64,000 nt of DNA from Candidatus Puniceispirillales bacterium (GTDB lineage Bacteria; Pseudomonadota; Alphaproteobacteria; Puniceispirillales; GCA-002684695), in contig JBJLFF010000019.1 in NCBI GenBank assembly GCA_045565515.1, positions 46,960 to 110,959 of the forward strand. Direction: 5' to 3'. Within the stretch, counting starts at the first letter, position 1. Each line of letters begins with the position of its first letter. The translations under genes and the position numbers were made by a program. The notes beneath the pieces are model-generated. The model worked only from the letters and a program-made list of their open reading frames with translations. It was not told where the DNA came from and ran no database searches. Positions 18,925 to 43,711 of this stretch are shown here, piece by piece.

Positions 18925-20478
18925 ATGATTACAGAAGTAAAAAGAAGAAATAAAAGAAAAAATCATCAGGATGATTTCAAGCAAATTGATCCAGTTATCT
19001 CAAAAGGTATGGAAGGTGGTAATTACAAACCATTAAGTGATAACGATATAAAAAAAATATATTCAACTGCATTAGAAGTATTAGAAAACTTAGGCGTTGG
19101 AAACCCATTGCCAGAACTATTAGATGCTGCAATTAATCAAGGTTGTAAAGTTAATGATGAAGGCAGGTTATGTTTTCCAAAGTCATTAGTAGAGGATGTA
19201 ATCAGTAGGGCAGGAAGGAACTTTACTTTATATGGGAGAGATCCAAAATATGACATTGAGCTTTCTGGAAATAAAGTCAATTTATTTGGAGCTGGTGAGG
19301 CAGTTTCAGTATTAGATTTGGGAGCAAATAAGTATCGCCCTTCAACTATCAACGATGTTTATGATATTGCTAGGATGGTCGACTATTTAGATAATATTCA
19401 TAGCTATTCCAGATTTGTGGTTCCAACAGAATTAAGTGAAGATTTATTGGTTGCTGACATTAACACAGCTTATGCAAGTTTAATGGGCACACAAAAGCAT
19501 ACGGCCCTTACATTTTCGGATGGAAAAAATGTTAAACCGACACTTGAAATGCTAGATATAATTGCAGGGGGAGAAGGAGAGTTTATAAAAAGACCATTTT
19601 GTCATGGAGGTGGCTGTACTATCGTTTCACCTTTACAATATGGAACTGATAATTGCGAAGTGGCTCTAGCATCATTACAATTAAATGCTCCAATTTGGGT
19701 TGTAATAGCACCTCAATCTGGAGCCACGGCACCTGCAGCTCTTGCAGGGTGTTTAGTACAGGCTTTAGCAGAGACTTTGGCGAGTCTTTTACTTATAGAT
19801 CTTATTAAACCAGGGCATCCTGTTATTTTTGGCCCTTGGCCTTTTGTTACAGACTTAAGAACAGGTGCTTTTTCTGGTGGTGGAGGTGAAGAAGCAATTA
19901 TGAGTGCAGCTTCAGCACAAATTACTAATTATTGCGGATTAGTTAGTTCAGTAGGTGCTGGTATGACTGATGCTAAAAGTCCTGATGCTCAGGCAGGTTA
20001 CGAAAAAGGTATTTCAATAGTGATGGCAGCATTAGCTGGTTGTAATAATGTCTCTGAATCTTCTGGAATGATGGCAAGTTTAATGGGATGCTCTTATGAG
20101 TCTCTTGTTATTGATAATGAAATGCTAGGTATGGTAATGAGAGTTGTTCGGGGTATTGAAGTCAACGATGATACTTTGTCTTATGACGTTATTAAGAAAA
20201 CTATTAAGGGTGAGGGGCACTTTTTAAGATCATCTCAAACATTGTCTCTCATGAAAACAGAGTATTTATATCCAGAATTAGCAGATAGATCTAGGCAAGA
20301 AGAATGGGAAGTTGAGGGTTCACCAGATATGAGAAAAAGAGCTGAACTTCATGCAAGAAAAATCTTAAACTCACATTATCCAGTTTATATAGATGATGAA
20401 ACTGATAAAAAAATTCGCGATAGATTCCCCATAAAAATAACAAAAAATATCATTAAACCTGATGCTAATAGGTTTTAA
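18925..20478 (+). CDS. MttB-superfamily (trimethylamine methyltransferase-like) protein, non-pyrrolysine type
   Basis: 517 aa. N-terminal pattern PLSDNDIKKIYSTALEVLENLGV is typical of the MttB family. The frame is uninterrupted, with no in-frame TAG. Confidence 0.75.
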   Translation: MITEVKRRNKRKNHQDDFKQIDPVISKGMEGGNYKPLSDNDIKKIYSTALEVLENLGVGNPLPELLDAAINQGCKVNDEGRLCFPKSLVEDVISRAGRNFTLYGRDPKYDIELSGNKVNLFGAGEAVSVLDLGANKYRPSTINDVYDIARMVDYLDNIHSYSRFVVPTELSEDLLVADINTAYASLMGTQKHTALTFSDGKNVKPTLEMLDIIAGGEGEFIKRPFCHGGGCTIVSPLQYGTDNCEVALASLQLNAPIWVVIAPQSGATAPAALAGCLVQALAETLASLLLIDLIKPGHPVIFGPWPFVTDLRTGAFSGGGGEEAIMSAASAQITNYCGLVSSVGAGMTDAKSPDAQAGYEKGISIVMAALAGCNNVSESSGMMASLMGCSYESLVIDNEMLGMVMRVVRGIEVNDDTLSYDVIKKTIKGEGHFLRSSQTLSLMKTEYLYPELADRSRQEEWEVEGSPDMRKRAELHARKILNSHYPVYIDDETDKKIRDRFPIKITKNIIKPDANRF

Positions 20479-41802: not shown

Positions 41803-41980
41803 TATTTACCATAAAAATAAAACAATGGATGCTAACTAAATCTAAAAGAAACAAAATTAAGAATAATAATAAAAATAAATATTTTTTATTTAAAAAAGAT
41901 TGCTTTATAATATATTGCATTATTGACTTTAATTTATTTGACTGACCAATTTTCTCGAATAGAACTAGAGAGGTTCAATT

Positions 41981-42769
41981 ATGGAAGTAAAATTTTTAGG
42001 AGTAAGAGGTTCTACGGCTACCCCAGGAAATGGATTTTCTGAATTTGGAGGTAACACATCATGTACAGAAGTACTTCATAATAATTTTCAAGTAATTCTT
42101 GACGCTGGTACTGGATTTAAAGATGTTAAGATAAGGAAAGATGTTCCGGTTTTAATATTATTTAGTCATTTTCATTTTGATCATATACAAGGACTTCCTT
42201 TCTGTAGAGATCTTCTATCACCAGATACTCCAATATATTTTTCCAGTGCCTTAGTTTCTAAGGATGAATTAAAAGGCATTTTAGGCGGTTGCTTTAGTCC
42301 ACACTACTTTCCTATAGAACTTGTAGAAAACCTTACTCATATTCAGTATTTAGAATTTGAAGAGGCTGCTAAAATTATTAAATCTAATTGTGAAATTACA
42401 AGTATAAACTTAAGACACCCAGGCGGAGCTACGGGTTATAAATTTGAATCAAACCAAGGTAAGTTTTGTTATTTACTCGATCACGAATATGATGATGACA
42501 GTGCCCCAGATATTATTGAAGCATCTAATAATAGTGATTTTGTTATGTGGGATGGAATGTTTACTTCTGAAGAGTTATCAATGAGGAAAGGATGGGGACA
42601 TTCTTCAATAACGCAAGGGAATGAATTTTTGGATATAACAAATTCTAAAAAAATGGCTATATCTCACCACAGTCCTTACAGGGATGATAAAGATATGATG
42701 AGTTTAGAAAGTGAAATTAAAAATAAAAATCTTTTCTTTGCTAAAGAAGGTCAAATTATAAAAATTTAG
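41981..42769 (+). CDS. MBL-fold metallo-hydrolase, candidate cyclic-nucleotide phosphodiesterase
   Basis: 262 aa. N-terminus KFLGVRGSTATPG...FGGNTSCTEV and metal motif SHFHFDHIQG. The function is inferred only from the fold class and the adjacent cNMP-binding gene. Confidence 0.6.
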   Translation: MEVKFLGVRGSTATPGNGFSEFGGNTSCTEVLHNNFQVILDAGTGFKDVKIRKDVPVLILFSHFHFDHIQGLPFCRDLLSPDTPIYFSSALVSKDELKGILGGCFSPHYFPIELVENLTHIQYLEFEEAAKIIKSNCEITSINLRHPGGATGYKFESNQGKFCYLLDHEYDDDSAPDIIEASNNSDFVMWDGMFTSEELSMRKGWGHSSITQGNEFLDITNSKKMAISHHSPYRDDKDMMSLESEIKNKNLFFAKEGQIIKI

Positions 42770-42783
42770 AAAATAAAATATAT

Positions 42784-43137
42784 ATGGAAAAATTAGAATT
42801 TAATAAAGGTCAGTTTGTTTTCAAAGCAGGCGATAGCGCGGGATATTTATTTTTATTAATTAAAGGGGAAGTTGGCATTTTTTTACCCACTAATGAAACA
42901 AATAACCCAAATTTCCCTGTTGGTGAAAACGAAATTTTTGGAGAAATGGGTGTTATTGAAGATACTTTACGAAGTGCAGGCGCAAGATGTATGACTGATT
43001 GTGTTGTTATATCATTATCGAAACAAGAATATGAAAAAAAACTCAATGAATCAGATCCCTTCATTAAAGGTTTACTAAGATTATTATCGATTAGATTGAG
43101 AGAAATGACAAAACCAAAAACTTTAGGTTCAAAGTAA
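42784..43137 (+). CDS. stand-alone cyclic nucleotide-binding domain protein
   Basis: 117 aa. CAP/cNMP-domain pattern FVFKAGDSAGYLFLLIKGEV with phosphate-binding cassette FGEMGVIEDTLRSAGARC. No output domain is present. Confidence 0.8.
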   Translation: MEKLEFNKGQFVFKAGDSAGYLFLLIKGEVGIFLPTNETNNPNFPVGENEIFGEMGVIEDTLRSAGARCMTDCVVISLSKQEYEKKLNESDPFIKGLLRLLSIRLREMTKPKTLGSK

Positions 43138-43163
43138 AAGGGTGATAATTAATATCACCCTTT
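43137..43163. terminator. perfect 11-bp stem / 5-nt loop hairpin between convergent genes (bidirectional terminator candidate)
   Basis: AAAGGGTGATA-attaa-TATCACCCTTT. It starts at the last base of the TAA of the cNMP-binding gene and lies 39 nt from the stop of the convergent small ORF. Confidence 0.7.
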
Positions 43164-43201: not shown

Positions 43202-43450
43202 TTATTTATTCATTTTGGAAATCATAAACCAAGCAAGTAATACTATTGAAATTCCAATAATTGCCTCACTTGTAATTATGGATATTAATTCTCCAATGTT
43301 CAGAATAACTGATCTTACGTAAGGCCCTGACCCATCTCCTAAGAGGATAAAAACCAAAACAATAATCAACACTATTAACGTACCGGCTTTACTTAGCTCC
43401 CAAACAAAGGAGCTGAAGCTTCGCAAATTACTAATAATTTTATTATCCAT
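43202..43450 (-). CDS. small two-TM membrane protein (paralog of 43493-43711)
   Basis: 82 aa with two hydrophobic helices. Its C-terminal half aligns with the neighbouring 72-aa protein. Confidence 0.55.
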   Translation of the reverse strand: MDNKIISNLRSFSSFVWELSKAGTLIVLIIVLVFILLGDGSGPYVRSVILNIGELISIITSEAIIGISIVLLAWFMISKMNK

Positions 43451-43492
43451 ATGTTAAATTCATATACTAAATTGTATCAGAACTAAAAGTAT

Positions 43493-43711
43493 TTATCTTT
43501 GGAACAACCAAAGAATAATACCCACAGCAACTAAGCCTGGTAGACCTGAACTTCCTAGTTCAGCAACCAATGCTGTGATGTTACCTACAACACCACCAAA
43601 GAATGCCATGTTTCCAGCTCCAACAAGTAATGTTAGAACAATTGCTAAGGCTAATAACGCCAGACCTAAGTCTGTTAAGCCACCTATAGTGCCTTTTGCC
43701 TTGTCAATCAT
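43493..43711 (-). CDS. small two-TM membrane protein with strong Shine-Dalgarno
   Basis: 72 aa, Gly/Ala/Leu-rich, with two helices. GGAGG lies 6 nt upstream of the ATG, which is unusual in this SD-poor window. Confidence 0.6.
   Translation of the reverse strand: MIDKAKGTIGGLTDLGLALLALAIVLTLLVGAGNMAFFGGVVGNITALVAELGSSGLPGLVAVGIILWLFQR

What the first reader, a model, noticed from the sequence alone, without database searches (positions are those of the whole stretch)
41981..43163. Minimal cyclic-nucleotide module: MBL-fold hydrolase plus an output-less cNMP-binding protein
A 262-aa MBL-fold enzyme (KFLGVRGS...GGNTSC...HFHFDH) is followed after 14 nt by a 117-aa protein. This second protein is nothing but a CAP-type cNMP-binding domain with an intact phosphate-binding cassette (FGEMGVIEDTLRSAGARC). 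The pair is preceded by a 178-bp non-coding region and closed by a perfect 11-bp hairpin, so it looks like a self-contained transcription unit. MBL-fold enzymes include known cyclic-nucleotide phosphodiesterases (class II cAMP PDEs and phage anti-Pycsar nucleases), so the pairing suggests a degrade-and-sense unit. No cyclase and no effector domain is visible. The convergent pair of tiny membrane proteins next door (43202-43711) could be targets, but that is speculation. Second-messenger signalling is very sparse in streamlined marine bacteria, so this is worth a look.
Basis: partly seen in the sequence, partly recalled or inferred. Interest (0 to 1): 0.55.

Follow-up and report, generated by a model that had tools for sequence, protein, structure and literature searches.

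The report
Conserved cAMP-degrading enzyme plus tiny sensor
Two adjacent genes in a marine SAR116 bacterium, a metal-dependent hydrolase and a 117-residue cyclic-nucleotide-binding protein, form a pair conserved across marine Alphaproteobacteria and often sit beside adenylate-cyclase genes, so they are most likely a breakdown enzyme and its small sensor for the signal molecule cAMP; no experiment has tested this.

Summary
A 262-aa MBL-fold ORF (41981-42769) is followed after 14 nt by a 117-aa single-domain cNMP-binding (CNB) ORF (42784-43137), which ends in an 11-bp hairpin.

The pairing is not chance. Of 78 related loci that could be assessed, 65 have the CNB gene directly downstream on the same strand, and 3 more have it convergent. 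The pair spans SAR116/Puniceispirillales and Rhodobacteraceae. In 40 of 80 loci a class III nucleotidyl cyclase lies within 6 kb, in at least four different architectures. Some loci form cyclase-MBL-CNB operons. The MBL copies that lack a CNB all sit next to cyclases.

All MBL metal ligands are invariant, including the SHxHxDH motif of 'atypical class II' phosphodiesterases. The closest solved sequences are YhfI and BA1088. The protein fails the curated cut-offs of Apyc1, RNase Z and PhnP.

The CNB phosphate-binding cassette is invariant. Its nearest characterised relative is the cAMP sensor domain of the Bd1971 phosphodiesterase.

Best reading: a split cAMP phosphodiesterase with a small cNMP-binding partner, analogous to Dictyostelium GbpA/GbpB. 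That the two proteins touch is inferred, not shown. The window contains no cyclase. The neighbouring small membrane proteins are not part of the module. This is a new variant of a known kind and of moderate interest.

The parts
41803..41980 (+). Upstream non-coding leader (178 nt). It holds a TATAAT-like block at 41906-41915 and a GAGG ribosome-binding site at 41970-41973, 7 nt before the ATG.
   Evidence: The sequence is. TATAATATAT and GGxGTTCAAT are the only blocks conserved with L001-L003 upstream regions. The promoter-like match TTTAAA-16-TATATT at 41889-41916 is no better than chance for this AT-rich region. No Rfam family matches here.
41981..42769 (+). MBL-fold metallo-hydrolase, 262 aa: putative 3',5'-cyclic-nucleotide (probably cAMP) phosphodiesterase of the PF12706 'atypical class II' kind.
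   Evidence: Searches give the ORF and domain. H63, H65, D67, H68, H146, D167, H207, H229 and H230 are invariant in 30 homologs. The AF2 model has pLDDT 93.4. The best solved sequence matches are BA1088 (9e-9) and YhfI (1e-7).
42770..42783 (+). 14-nt intergenic spacer; the two genes are co-transcribed.
   Evidence: In related loci the approximate spacer has a median of 21 nt and ranges from -4 to 69 nt.
42784..43137 (+). Stand-alone 117-aa cNMP-binding protein: a beta-barrel plus a C-terminal helix, with no output domain.
   Evidence: PF00027, 59 bits. The cassette residues G53, E54, R63 and A65 are at least 95% conserved in 57 unique orthologs. The best solved match is the cAMP sensor domain of Bd1971, E 1.4e-14.
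43137..43163 (.). Perfect 11-bp hairpin with a 5-nt loop between convergent genes: a plausible bidirectional terminator.
   Evidence: -14.9 kcal/mol, z -3.3. It is not a canonical intrinsic terminator.

Best explanation
The two genes form a small operon in a Candidatus Puniceispirillales (SAR116) genome and encode a cAMP turnover module.

The MBL-fold protein is a binuclear-metal phosphodiesterase that hydrolyses 3',5'-cyclic nucleotides, most likely cAMP. The 117-aa protein is a minimal cyclic-nucleotide receptor made at matched levels from the same transcript.

The most likely mechanism is that the nucleotide-bound receptor docks on the phosphodiesterase and switches or tunes its activity. 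Rising cAMP would then accelerate its own removal, giving pulse shaping or adaptation. This would be a two-polypeptide version of enzymes that carry the same two functions in one chain: Dictyostelium GbpA/GbpB (MBL catalytic domain followed by CNB domains) and Bdellovibrio Bd1971 (CNB sensor plus EAL phosphodiesterase).

The messenger is made by class III cyclases. These are encoded next to the pair in many relatives but lie outside this window here.

Shown: the gene pair, intact catalytic and ligand-binding residues, conserved adjacency, and linkage to cyclases. Inferred: the substrate, the ligand, and physical contact between the two proteins.
For: 1. Pairing. The CNB gene is directly downstream on the same strand in 65 of 78 assessable loci, convergent in 3 and 2 kb away in 1. 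After dereplication at 70% MBL identity, at least 19 of 25 clusters keep it. The spacer median is 21 nt, with 4-nt overlaps in some loci, which suggests translational coupling.

2. Link to synthesis.
- 40 of 80 loci hold at least one class III cyclase ORF within 6 kb, about 52 genes in 888 kb.
- At least four architectures are confirmed by Pfam PF00211: a 430-aa form, 7TM-cyclase, GAF-GAF-PAS-cyclase and a 294-aa form. A Fer2-cyclase also occurs.
- Same-strand cyclase-MBL-CNB or MBL-CNB-cyclase arrangements occur in L086, L034, L044 and L082.
- Eight of the nine CNB-less loci carry cyclases, one of them beginning 8-562 nt downstream of the MBL gene. The ninth, L024, keeps a CNB remnant.
- Only L024 (CNB remnant) and L038 (contig end) show neither partner.

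3. Enzyme. All MBL metal ligands and the S-H-x-H-x-D-H motif are invariant. This matches the [T/S]HxHxDH signature defined for atypical class II cAMP phosphodiesterases Rv1339/YhfI/CpdA (PMC9293780). A profile of the family hits BA1088 and YhfI ahead of RNase Z. There is a weak full-length match to NCBIfam NF041851, 'cyclic nucleotide-degrading phosphodiesterase'. Some family members have weak PF23023 (Anti-Pycsar_Apyc1) hits. Bacterial Apyc1-like enzymes cleave cAMP/cGMP/cCMP/cUMP and are sometimes next to a cyclase (PMC11724313).

4. Receptor. The cassette residues G-E...R-x-A are invariant. The closest non-orthologous single-domain relatives are N-terminal sensors of CNB-EAL phosphodiesterases. 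In Bd1971, cAMP binding holds the enzyme active (PMC6717892).

5. Messenger. Most linked cyclases have Lys at the base-specifying position (K-T, K-D or K-S) and none has the Glu of guanylate cyclases. Reading this as adenylate cyclase rests on my knowledge of class III cyclases.

6. Precedent. GbpA/GbpB have an MBL catalytic domain followed by CNB domains that activate it (PMC11988041).
Against: - No biochemical data exist for any member of this family.
- Structure comparison cannot separate cNMP phosphodiesterases from RNase Z or PhnP-type enzymes. The strongest NCBIfam scores are partial RNase Z matches, 50 bits over residues 171-261.
- No genuine MBL-CNB fusion was found. A search with a fused query returned only P0080 in the top 120. 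P0080 lies on an error-prone long-read contig whose sister contig has two genes 1 nt apart.
- An AF2 model of the artificial fusion gave pTM 0.70. That is about what two independently folded domains would give, so it is no evidence for an interface.
- The window and the closest relatives (L001-L026) have no cyclase within reach. The source of the ligand in this genome is therefore unverified.
- The CNB is more conserved than the MBL (54% vs 43% mean identity). It may have partners other than the enzyme.
Confidence: 0.5

Rival explanations
1. The pathway is the same but there is no complex. The MBL protein is a cAMP phosphodiesterase. The CNB protein is an independent small receptor that signals to other, unidentified partners, or it acts as a cAMP buffer. 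It is co-transcribed with the enzyme only so that sensor and sink are expressed together.
For: The CNB is more conserved than the MBL (54% vs 43%). No natural fusion exists. The AF2 fused model does not indicate a fixed interface. In L067 the two genes are separated by a cyclase gene, and in L027, L028 and L037 they are convergent, so strict translational coupling is not universal.
Against: Adjacency persists in 65 of 78 loci across orders while every other neighbour changes. That pattern is typical of interacting products. The C-terminal helix (L101, R106), which in Bd1971-type sensors transmits the signal, is invariant. No conserved third gene that could be a target was found.
Confidence: 0.25
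2. The MBL protein is the output, not the sink. It would be an RNase Z-like nuclease or other hydrolase that the cNMP-bound CNB protein switches on. cAMP made by the neighbouring cyclases would then control RNA or metabolite cleavage.
For: The best NCBIfam scores are to the C-terminal half of RNase Z. The top Foldseek hits include ELAC1 and RNase Z. The C-terminal motif ISHHSPYR resembles the RNase Z THxSxRY motif (sequence; the motif is from my own knowledge). The CNB has no output domain of its own.
Against: All RNase Z hits are far below the curated cut-off (50 vs 293 bits) and cover only residues 171-261. Whole-length profile matches favour YhfI and BA1088. CNB-less paralogs of the MBL still sit next to cyclases. 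That fits a degrading enzyme paired with a synthase better than an effector that has lost its sensor.
Confidence: 0.12
3. The genes are a Pycsar-like anti-phage system or a counter-defence gene. A cyclase would make a cyclic nucleotide on infection, with the CNB and MBL proteins acting as a split effector or as an Apyc1-type signal eraser.
For: PADLOC models of PycTIR effectors match the CNB (E 3e-9). PycC models match the linked 430-aa cyclase (E 1.8e-28). Weak Apyc1 family hits occur in some homologs.
Against: These are generic domain-level matches. The MBL protein has no PADLOC hit. No TIR or membrane effector domain is present. The linked cyclases carry GAF, PAS, 7TM and ferredoxin sensor domains typical of housekeeping signalling. 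The locus is syntenic among relatives at 70-88% identity, sits between metabolic genes and shows no compositional anomaly. Viral structure matches are weaker than cellular ones.
Confidence: 0.04
4. The two genes are unrelated neighbours. The MBL protein would be a PhnP- or RNase Z-type housekeeping enzyme, as JGI's automatic name 'phosphoribosyl 1,2-cyclic phosphodiesterase' implies, and the CNB gene happens to lie next to it.
For: JGI annotation of homologs. Weak PhnP hit, 34 bits.
Against: PhnP's cut-off is 272 bits. No phn genes lie nearby. The adjacency to CNB and to cyclases across 25 dereplicated lineages cannot be chance.
Confidence: 0.03

Closest known systems
Atypical class II cyclic-nucleotide phosphodiesterases (PF12706): M. 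tuberculosis Rv1339, B. subtilis YhfI, C. glutamicum CpdA. Includes bacterial and phage Apyc1.
   Same: MBL fold. [T/S]HxHxDH metal motif (SHFHFDH here). About 250-270 aa, single domain, cytoplasmic. YhfI and BA1088 are the best solved sequence matches. Some are chromosomal and adjacent to cyclases (PMC11724313).
   Different: Only 13-17% identity to solved members. Fails the curated Apyc1/YhfI model, 34 vs 400 bits. Has its own invariant motifs: GxRGS, GGxT, WDGM and GWGHSS. None of the characterised members is described with a dedicated CNB partner gene.
Dictyostelium GbpA/GbpB (PdeD/PdeE), class IIb phosphodiesterases
   Same: An MBL-type catalytic module followed by cyclic-nucleotide-binding module(s). 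In GbpA/B the bound nucleotide activates hydrolysis (PMC11988041). The order, catalytic part then CNB, matches the gene order here.
   Different: GbpA/B are single large eukaryotic polypeptides with two CNB domains. Here there are two separate small proteins with one CNB domain. Sequence relatedness of the catalytic domains could not be tested with the tools at hand.
Bdellovibrio Bd1971 and similar CNB-EAL enzymes
   Same: The CNB protein aligns over 105 residues with the Bd1971 cAMP sensor (E 1.4e-14). CNB-EAL proteins are its nearest non-orthologous single-domain relatives. In both cases a minimal CNB that starts at the N-terminus is coupled to a nucleotide phosphodiesterase.
   Different: In Bd1971 the sensor is fused to an EAL domain that degrades c-di-GMP, which gives cross-talk between messengers. 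Here the partner is a separate MBL enzyme that presumably degrades the same messenger the sensor binds.
CRP/FNR transcription factors and PKA regulatory subunits
   Same: The CNB fold and phosphate-binding cassette.
   Different: No helix-turn-helix, no dimerisation/docking or inhibitor segment, and only 117 aa.

Membership tests
Atypical class II PDE (PF12706 group of Rv1339/YhfI/CpdA) | MBL alpha-beta/beta-alpha fold with a PF12706 match | tested here: met
   PF12706 scores 53.4 bits against a cut-off of 27. The AF2 model has pLDDT 93 and matches MBL phosphodiesterases.
Atypical class II PDE (PF12706 group of Rv1339/YhfI/CpdA) | Signature metal motif [T/S]HxHxDH (PMC9293780) | tested here: met
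   S62-H63-F-H65-F-D67-H68. H63, H65, D67 and H68 are invariant and S62 is at least 90% conserved in 30 homologs.
Atypical class II PDE (PF12706 group of Rv1339/YhfI/CpdA) | Hydrolysis of 3',5'-cAMP/cGMP | not testable with these tools
   Needs an enzyme assay.
Apyc1 / YhfI equivalog (NCBIfam NF041851; Pfam PF23023) | Score above the curated cut-off | tested here: not met
   NF041851 scores 33.7 bits against a cut-off of 400, although the match is full-length. The window protein shows no PF23023 hit. Some homologs have only weak hits.
Typical class II PDE (PF02112; CpdP, yeast Pde1, PdsA) | PF02112 match and HxHLDH motif | tested here: not met
   No PF02112 hit at E up to 10. The motif here is HFHFDH.
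RNase Z (TIGR02651) | Full-length match above the cut-off | tested here: not met
   50.3 bits against 292.95. Only residues 171-261 align.
PhnP (TIGR03307) | Match above the cut-off and a phn operon context | tested here: not met
   33.9 bits against 272.25. No phn genes lie near the pair in any locus.
cNMP-binding domain (PF00027) | Domain match and an intact phosphate-binding cassette (G-E ... R-x-A) | tested here: met
   59 bits against 27.5. G53, E54, R63 and A65 are at least 95% conserved in 57 unique orthologs.
CRP/FNR transcription factor | C-terminal helix-turn-helix DNA-binding domain | tested here: not met
   The protein ends after the C-helix at residue 117. PRK11753 scores 32.6 bits against 266.
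GbpA/GbpB-type (class IIb) cNMP-activated PDE | MBL catalytic domain and CNB domain(s) in one polypeptide | tested here: not met
   The genes are always separate. The only 'fusion' (P0080) is a probable indel artefact.
GbpA/GbpB-type (class IIb) cNMP-activated PDE | Activation of hydrolysis by nucleotide binding to the CNB | not testable with these tools
   Needs kinetics with and without the CNB protein. The AF2 fused model is inconclusive (pTM 0.70).
Pycsar defence system | PycC cyclase plus an effector with CNB fused to a TIR or membrane domain | tested here: not met
   PADLOC gives only domain-level hits. There is no effector domain and no MBL hit. No cyclase lies in the window.

The most novel reading that the evidence does not exclude
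The MBL protein is not the sink but the output. A 13-kDa cAMP receptor would switch on an RNase Z-derived hydrolase, giving abundant marine Alphaproteobacteria a housekeeping pathway in which cAMP directly controls cleavage of RNA or another phosphodiester. That pairing of receptor and effector has not been described for cAMP in bacteria.
Probability: 0.1. Interest if true: 0.75.

Novelty: new variant of a known kind. Interest (0 to 1): 0.5.

Why it matters
SAR116 and Roseobacter-group bacteria are among the most abundant heterotrophs in the surface ocean, and their second-messenger signalling is essentially unstudied.

This work defines a compact, recurring gene set: a class III cyclase, an MBL phosphodiesterase and a minimal CNB protein. 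That set gives a concrete handle on cAMP signalling in these lineages.

If the CNB protein is a detachable regulatory subunit of the phosphodiesterase, it would be the first bacterial two-subunit counterpart of the cNMP-activated MBL phosphodiesterases known from Dictyostelium. It would also be a very small, easily purified system for studying how a CNB domain controls an enzyme in trans.

The result also corrects automatic annotations. JGI calls the enzyme 'phosphoribosyl 1,2-cyclic phosphodiesterase', and the NCBI record for this exact sequence calls it generically 'MBL fold metallo-hydrolase' and its partner 'cyclic nucleotide-binding domain-containing protein'.

Tried and rejected
1. Natural fusions as evidence for interaction. 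P0080 (375 aa, MBL+CNB) looked like a Rosetta-stone fusion. Its contig is a pilon-polished long-read assembly with many split genes. The sister contig has separate genes 1 nt apart. A search with an artificial fused query found no other fusion in the top 120. Rejected as a probable indel artefact.

2. AF2 docking.
- Mixed alignments of MBL-only and CNB-only rows were misaligned by MAFFT.
- A usable alignment (A5: 2 fused, 4 MBL and 20 CNB rows) gave pLDDT 84.5 and pTM 0.70 with no PAE output. This is inconclusive.

4. Foldseek against PDB does not separate RNase Z, PhnP, YhfI and Apyc1. The viral library gave only weaker generic MBL hits.

5. The small membrane proteins as targets. They are present next to the pair only in L001-L003 and L012. 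They have no Pfam, NCBIfam or PADLOC hits. Rejected as module members.

6. Riboswitch or RNA element in the 178-nt leader. No Rfam match at gathering threshold.

7. Cyclase or a second CNB in the window. None found.

8. Literature searches for this operon, for stand-alone CNB plus MBL, and for SAR116 cAMP found nothing specific.

9. Horizontal-transfer or defence-island signature. There is no compositional anomaly and synteny is conserved.
Full report
**Observation.** The window carries a 262-aa ORF at 41981-42769 and a 117-aa ORF at 42784-43137, both on the + strand and separated by 14 nt. A 178-nt non-coding stretch precedes them and a perfect 11-bp hairpin at 43137-43163 follows.
- Pfam assigns the first protein to PF12706 (Lactamase_B_2, E 3e-14).
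- Pfam assigns the second to PF00027 (cNMP_binding, E 5e-16), which covers nearly its whole length. No other domain is found.
- The exact proteins exist in NCBI as MFL2814621.1 ('MBL fold metallo-hydrolase') and MFL2814622.1 ('cyclic nucleotide-binding domain-containing protein'). They come from a Candidatus Puniceispirillales (SAR116) MAG.
- The window has 33% GC and shows no compositional anomaly at the locus.
- The only blocks in the leader conserved with close relatives are a TATAAT-like element and the ribosome-binding site. No Rfam element is present.

**Is the pairing real?** An alignment of MBL homologs retrieved 397 relatives from the GTDB species genomes. The best 80 loci were fetched with 6-kb flanks. 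They come from SAR116/Puniceispirillales, Rhodobacteraceae (including HIMB11 and a complete genome, CP179201.1) and unclassified marine Alphaproteobacteria.

tblastn with the window's proteins gave these counts:

| CNB position relative to the MBL gene | Loci |
|---|---|
| Immediately downstream, same strand | 65 of 78 assessable |
| Convergent | 3 |
| 2 kb away | 1 |
| Absent | 9 |

- The approximate spacer has a median of 21 nt, and some loci have start/stop overlaps.
- In loci where the MBL is below 60% identical, the CNB is more conserved than the enzyme (54% vs 43%).
- After clustering all ORFs in the loci, the CNB is the only neighbour kept across lineages. Every other flanking gene changes.
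- After dereplication at 70% MBL identity, at least 19 of 25 clusters keep the adjacency.
- The two small membrane proteins next door accompany the pair only in the four closest loci. They are not part of the module.

**Link to cyclases.** The ORF clustering showed class III nucleotidyl cyclases recurring beside the MBL gene.
- Pfam confirmed PF00211 in four unrelated architectures: a 430-aa protein, a 7TM-cyclase, a GAF-GAF-PAS-cyclase and a 294-aa protein. A ferredoxin-cyclase was seen in a metagenomic contig.
- An HMM built from these domains finds at least one cyclase ORF within 6 kb in 40 of 80 loci. That is about 52 genes in 888 kb, or one per 17 kb, and 17 of 25 dereplicated clusters.
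- I could not compute a genomic background. For scale, even cyclase-rich Sinorhizobium meliloti has about 26 in 6.7 Mb (my own knowledge).
- Several loci are same-strand three-gene arrays: cyclase-MBL-CNB in L086 and L034, MBL-CNB-cyclase in L044 and L082.
- Eight of the nine loci without a full-length CNB form a partly separate paralogous group. Identity is 59% within the nine and 43% to the CNB-linked copies.
- Each of those eight carries cyclases, one of them beginning 8-562 nt downstream of the MBL gene: a convergent 294-aa cyclase in six loci and the GAF-GAF-PAS cyclase in L033/L036. The ninth, L024, keeps only a CNB remnant.
- Only two of 80 loci show neither partner: L024 and L038, where the contig ends.
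- Most linked cyclases have Lys at the base-specifying position and none has Glu. By established knowledge of class III cyclases this points to cAMP rather than cGMP.
- In the window itself, and in its closest relatives (L001-L026), no cyclase is within reach.

**The enzyme.** H63, H65, D67, H68, H146, D167, H207 and H229/H230 are invariant among 30 homologs. The family also has its own motifs: GxRGS, GGxT, WDGM and GWGHSS.
- The motif S-H-F-H-F-D-H fits the [T/S]HxHxDH signature that Thomson et al. used to define 'atypical class II' cAMP phosphodiesterases (Rv1339, YhfI, CpdA; PF12706). They consider these enzymes derived from RNase Z (PMC9293780).
- The AF2 model is confident (pLDDT 93.4). 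Foldseek matches ELAC1/RNase Z, a PhnP-family diphosphatase, BA1088, YhfI and Apyc1 with similar scores at 13-17% identity. Fold alone does not decide the function.
- A profile of the family ranks BA1088 (9e-9) and YhfI (1e-7) ahead of RNase Z (5e-6) among solved sequences.
- PF02112, the typical class II family, is not hit. Some homologs have weak PF23023 (Anti-Pycsar_Apyc1) hits.

The protein is therefore a separate family inside the RNase Z-derived MBL phosphodiesterase group, nearest to the cNMP-degrading branch. Tesson et al. showed that chromosomal Apyc1-like enzymes cleave all four cNMPs, proposed a housekeeping role, and noted occasional adjacency to cyclases (PMC11724313).

**The receptor.** The 117-aa protein is a beta-barrel plus a C-terminal helix, with no N-terminal helical bundle and no output domain.
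- The phosphate-binding cassette residues G53, E54, R63 and A65 are at least 95% conserved in 57 unique orthologs. So are L101 and R106 in the C-helix.
- Its best solved match is the cAMP-sensing N-terminal domain of the Bdellovibrio EAL phosphodiesterase Bd1971 (E 1.4e-14 over 105 residues).
- A search of 1.8 billion representatives shows that stand-alone 110-150-aa proteins are its orthologs. The nearest other single-domain relatives are CNB-EAL enzymes.
- In Bd1971, cAMP binding holds the phosphodiesterase in its active conformation (PMC6717892).

**Mechanism.** The best-supported reading is a cAMP turnover module made of a phosphodiesterase and a co-expressed minimal receptor.
- I favour the receptor acting on the enzyme, either as substrate-dependent activation or as gating. 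Three facts point that way: the persistent tight adjacency, the invariant C-helix, and precedents in which a CNB is coupled to a phosphodiesterase (GbpA/GbpB, MBL then CNB domains, PMC11988041; Bd1971).
- This step is inferred. No genuine fusion exists and an AF2 model of an artificial fusion is uninformative (pTM 0.70).
- Rivals: an independent receptor or buffer; the MBL as a cAMP-switched nuclease output; a Pycsar-like defence or counter-defence role; mere neighbours.
- The defence reading rests only on generic domain hits in PADLOC. Sensor-domain cyclases, conserved synteny among metabolic genes and normal composition argue against it.
- Mere neighbourhood is excluded by the co-occurrence data.

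**Novelty and verdict.** MBL-fold cNMP phosphodiesterases and CNB domains are both well known, and adjacency of Apyc1-like genes to cyclases has been noted before. What is new is a distinct MBL family that is almost always paired with a dedicated, output-less CNB protein. The pair is widespread in abundant marine Alphaproteobacteria and frequently forms a three-gene set with a cyclase.

I found no paper that describes it. I rate it a new variant of a known kind with moderate interest (0.5). The hypothesis is readily tested with two small soluble proteins.

Noticed in passing
window 43493-43711 (- strand): A 72-aa protein with two hydrophobic helices and no family hit. It is 100% identical in protein and 95-98% identical in DNA in four SAR116 relatives, while flanking genes are only 68-85% identical in DNA. 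Synonymous sites are conserved too. That suggests an RNA-level or codon constraint, or recent spread.
   Followed up: partly
window 19963-20062 (+), inside ORF 18925-20478: An Rfam PYLIS_3 match (pyrrolysine insertion sequence of mttB, 55 bits) lies inside an uninterrupted 517-aa ORF. If the ORF is an MttB-family gene it would be a non-pyrrolysine member, matched through coding-sequence homology. An MTTB-family gene also lies just downstream of the MBL-CNB-cyclase trio in L081/L082.
   Followed up: no
L033, L036, L045, L047, L068, L073, L075, L079, L083: A CNB-less paralogous MBL subfamily. The MBL gene is followed by a convergent 294-aa cyclase-domain protein (absent in L033/L036), then (except in L079) by a coiled-coil protein built of 'DAAVQKAVQKSADEIQQLK' repeats and a GAF-GAF-PAS-cyclase. 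One MAG (CAJWEI01) carries both a CNB-linked and a CNB-less copy (L039, L047).
   Followed up: partly
L081 10001-11128 vs L082 10001-11129: The only MBL-CNB 'fusion' protein (P0080) is on a long-read contig with many fragmented genes. The near-identical sister contig has two genes 1 nt apart. It is probably an indel artefact.
   Followed up: yes
L029 7181-8344 (-), L056 7197-8390 (-): In one SAR116 group a second, unrelated 387-aa MBL-fold protein (PF12706, E 3e-45, with an N-terminal hydrophobic segment) sits between the CNB gene and a 7TM-cyclase.
   Followed up: no
L030 3017-3499 (-): A second, 160-aa single-domain CNB protein lies 2.5 kb upstream of the MBL-CNB pair in a Rhodobacteraceae-type locus that also has a cyclase downstream.
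   Followed up: no
L045 (PBTA01000079.1) and L061 (PBHH01000021.1): These contigs are labelled 'Methanobacteriota archaeon' and 'Gammaproteobacteria' MAGs. Their gene orders match the alphaproteobacterial loci (L045 is like L047; L061 is like L058/L062), so they are probably mis-binned.
   Followed up: no
L024 6816-6887: In one Candidatus Puniceispirillum MAG only residues 49-73 of the CNB are detectable downstream of the MBL gene. This may be a decaying CNB gene.
   Followed up: no
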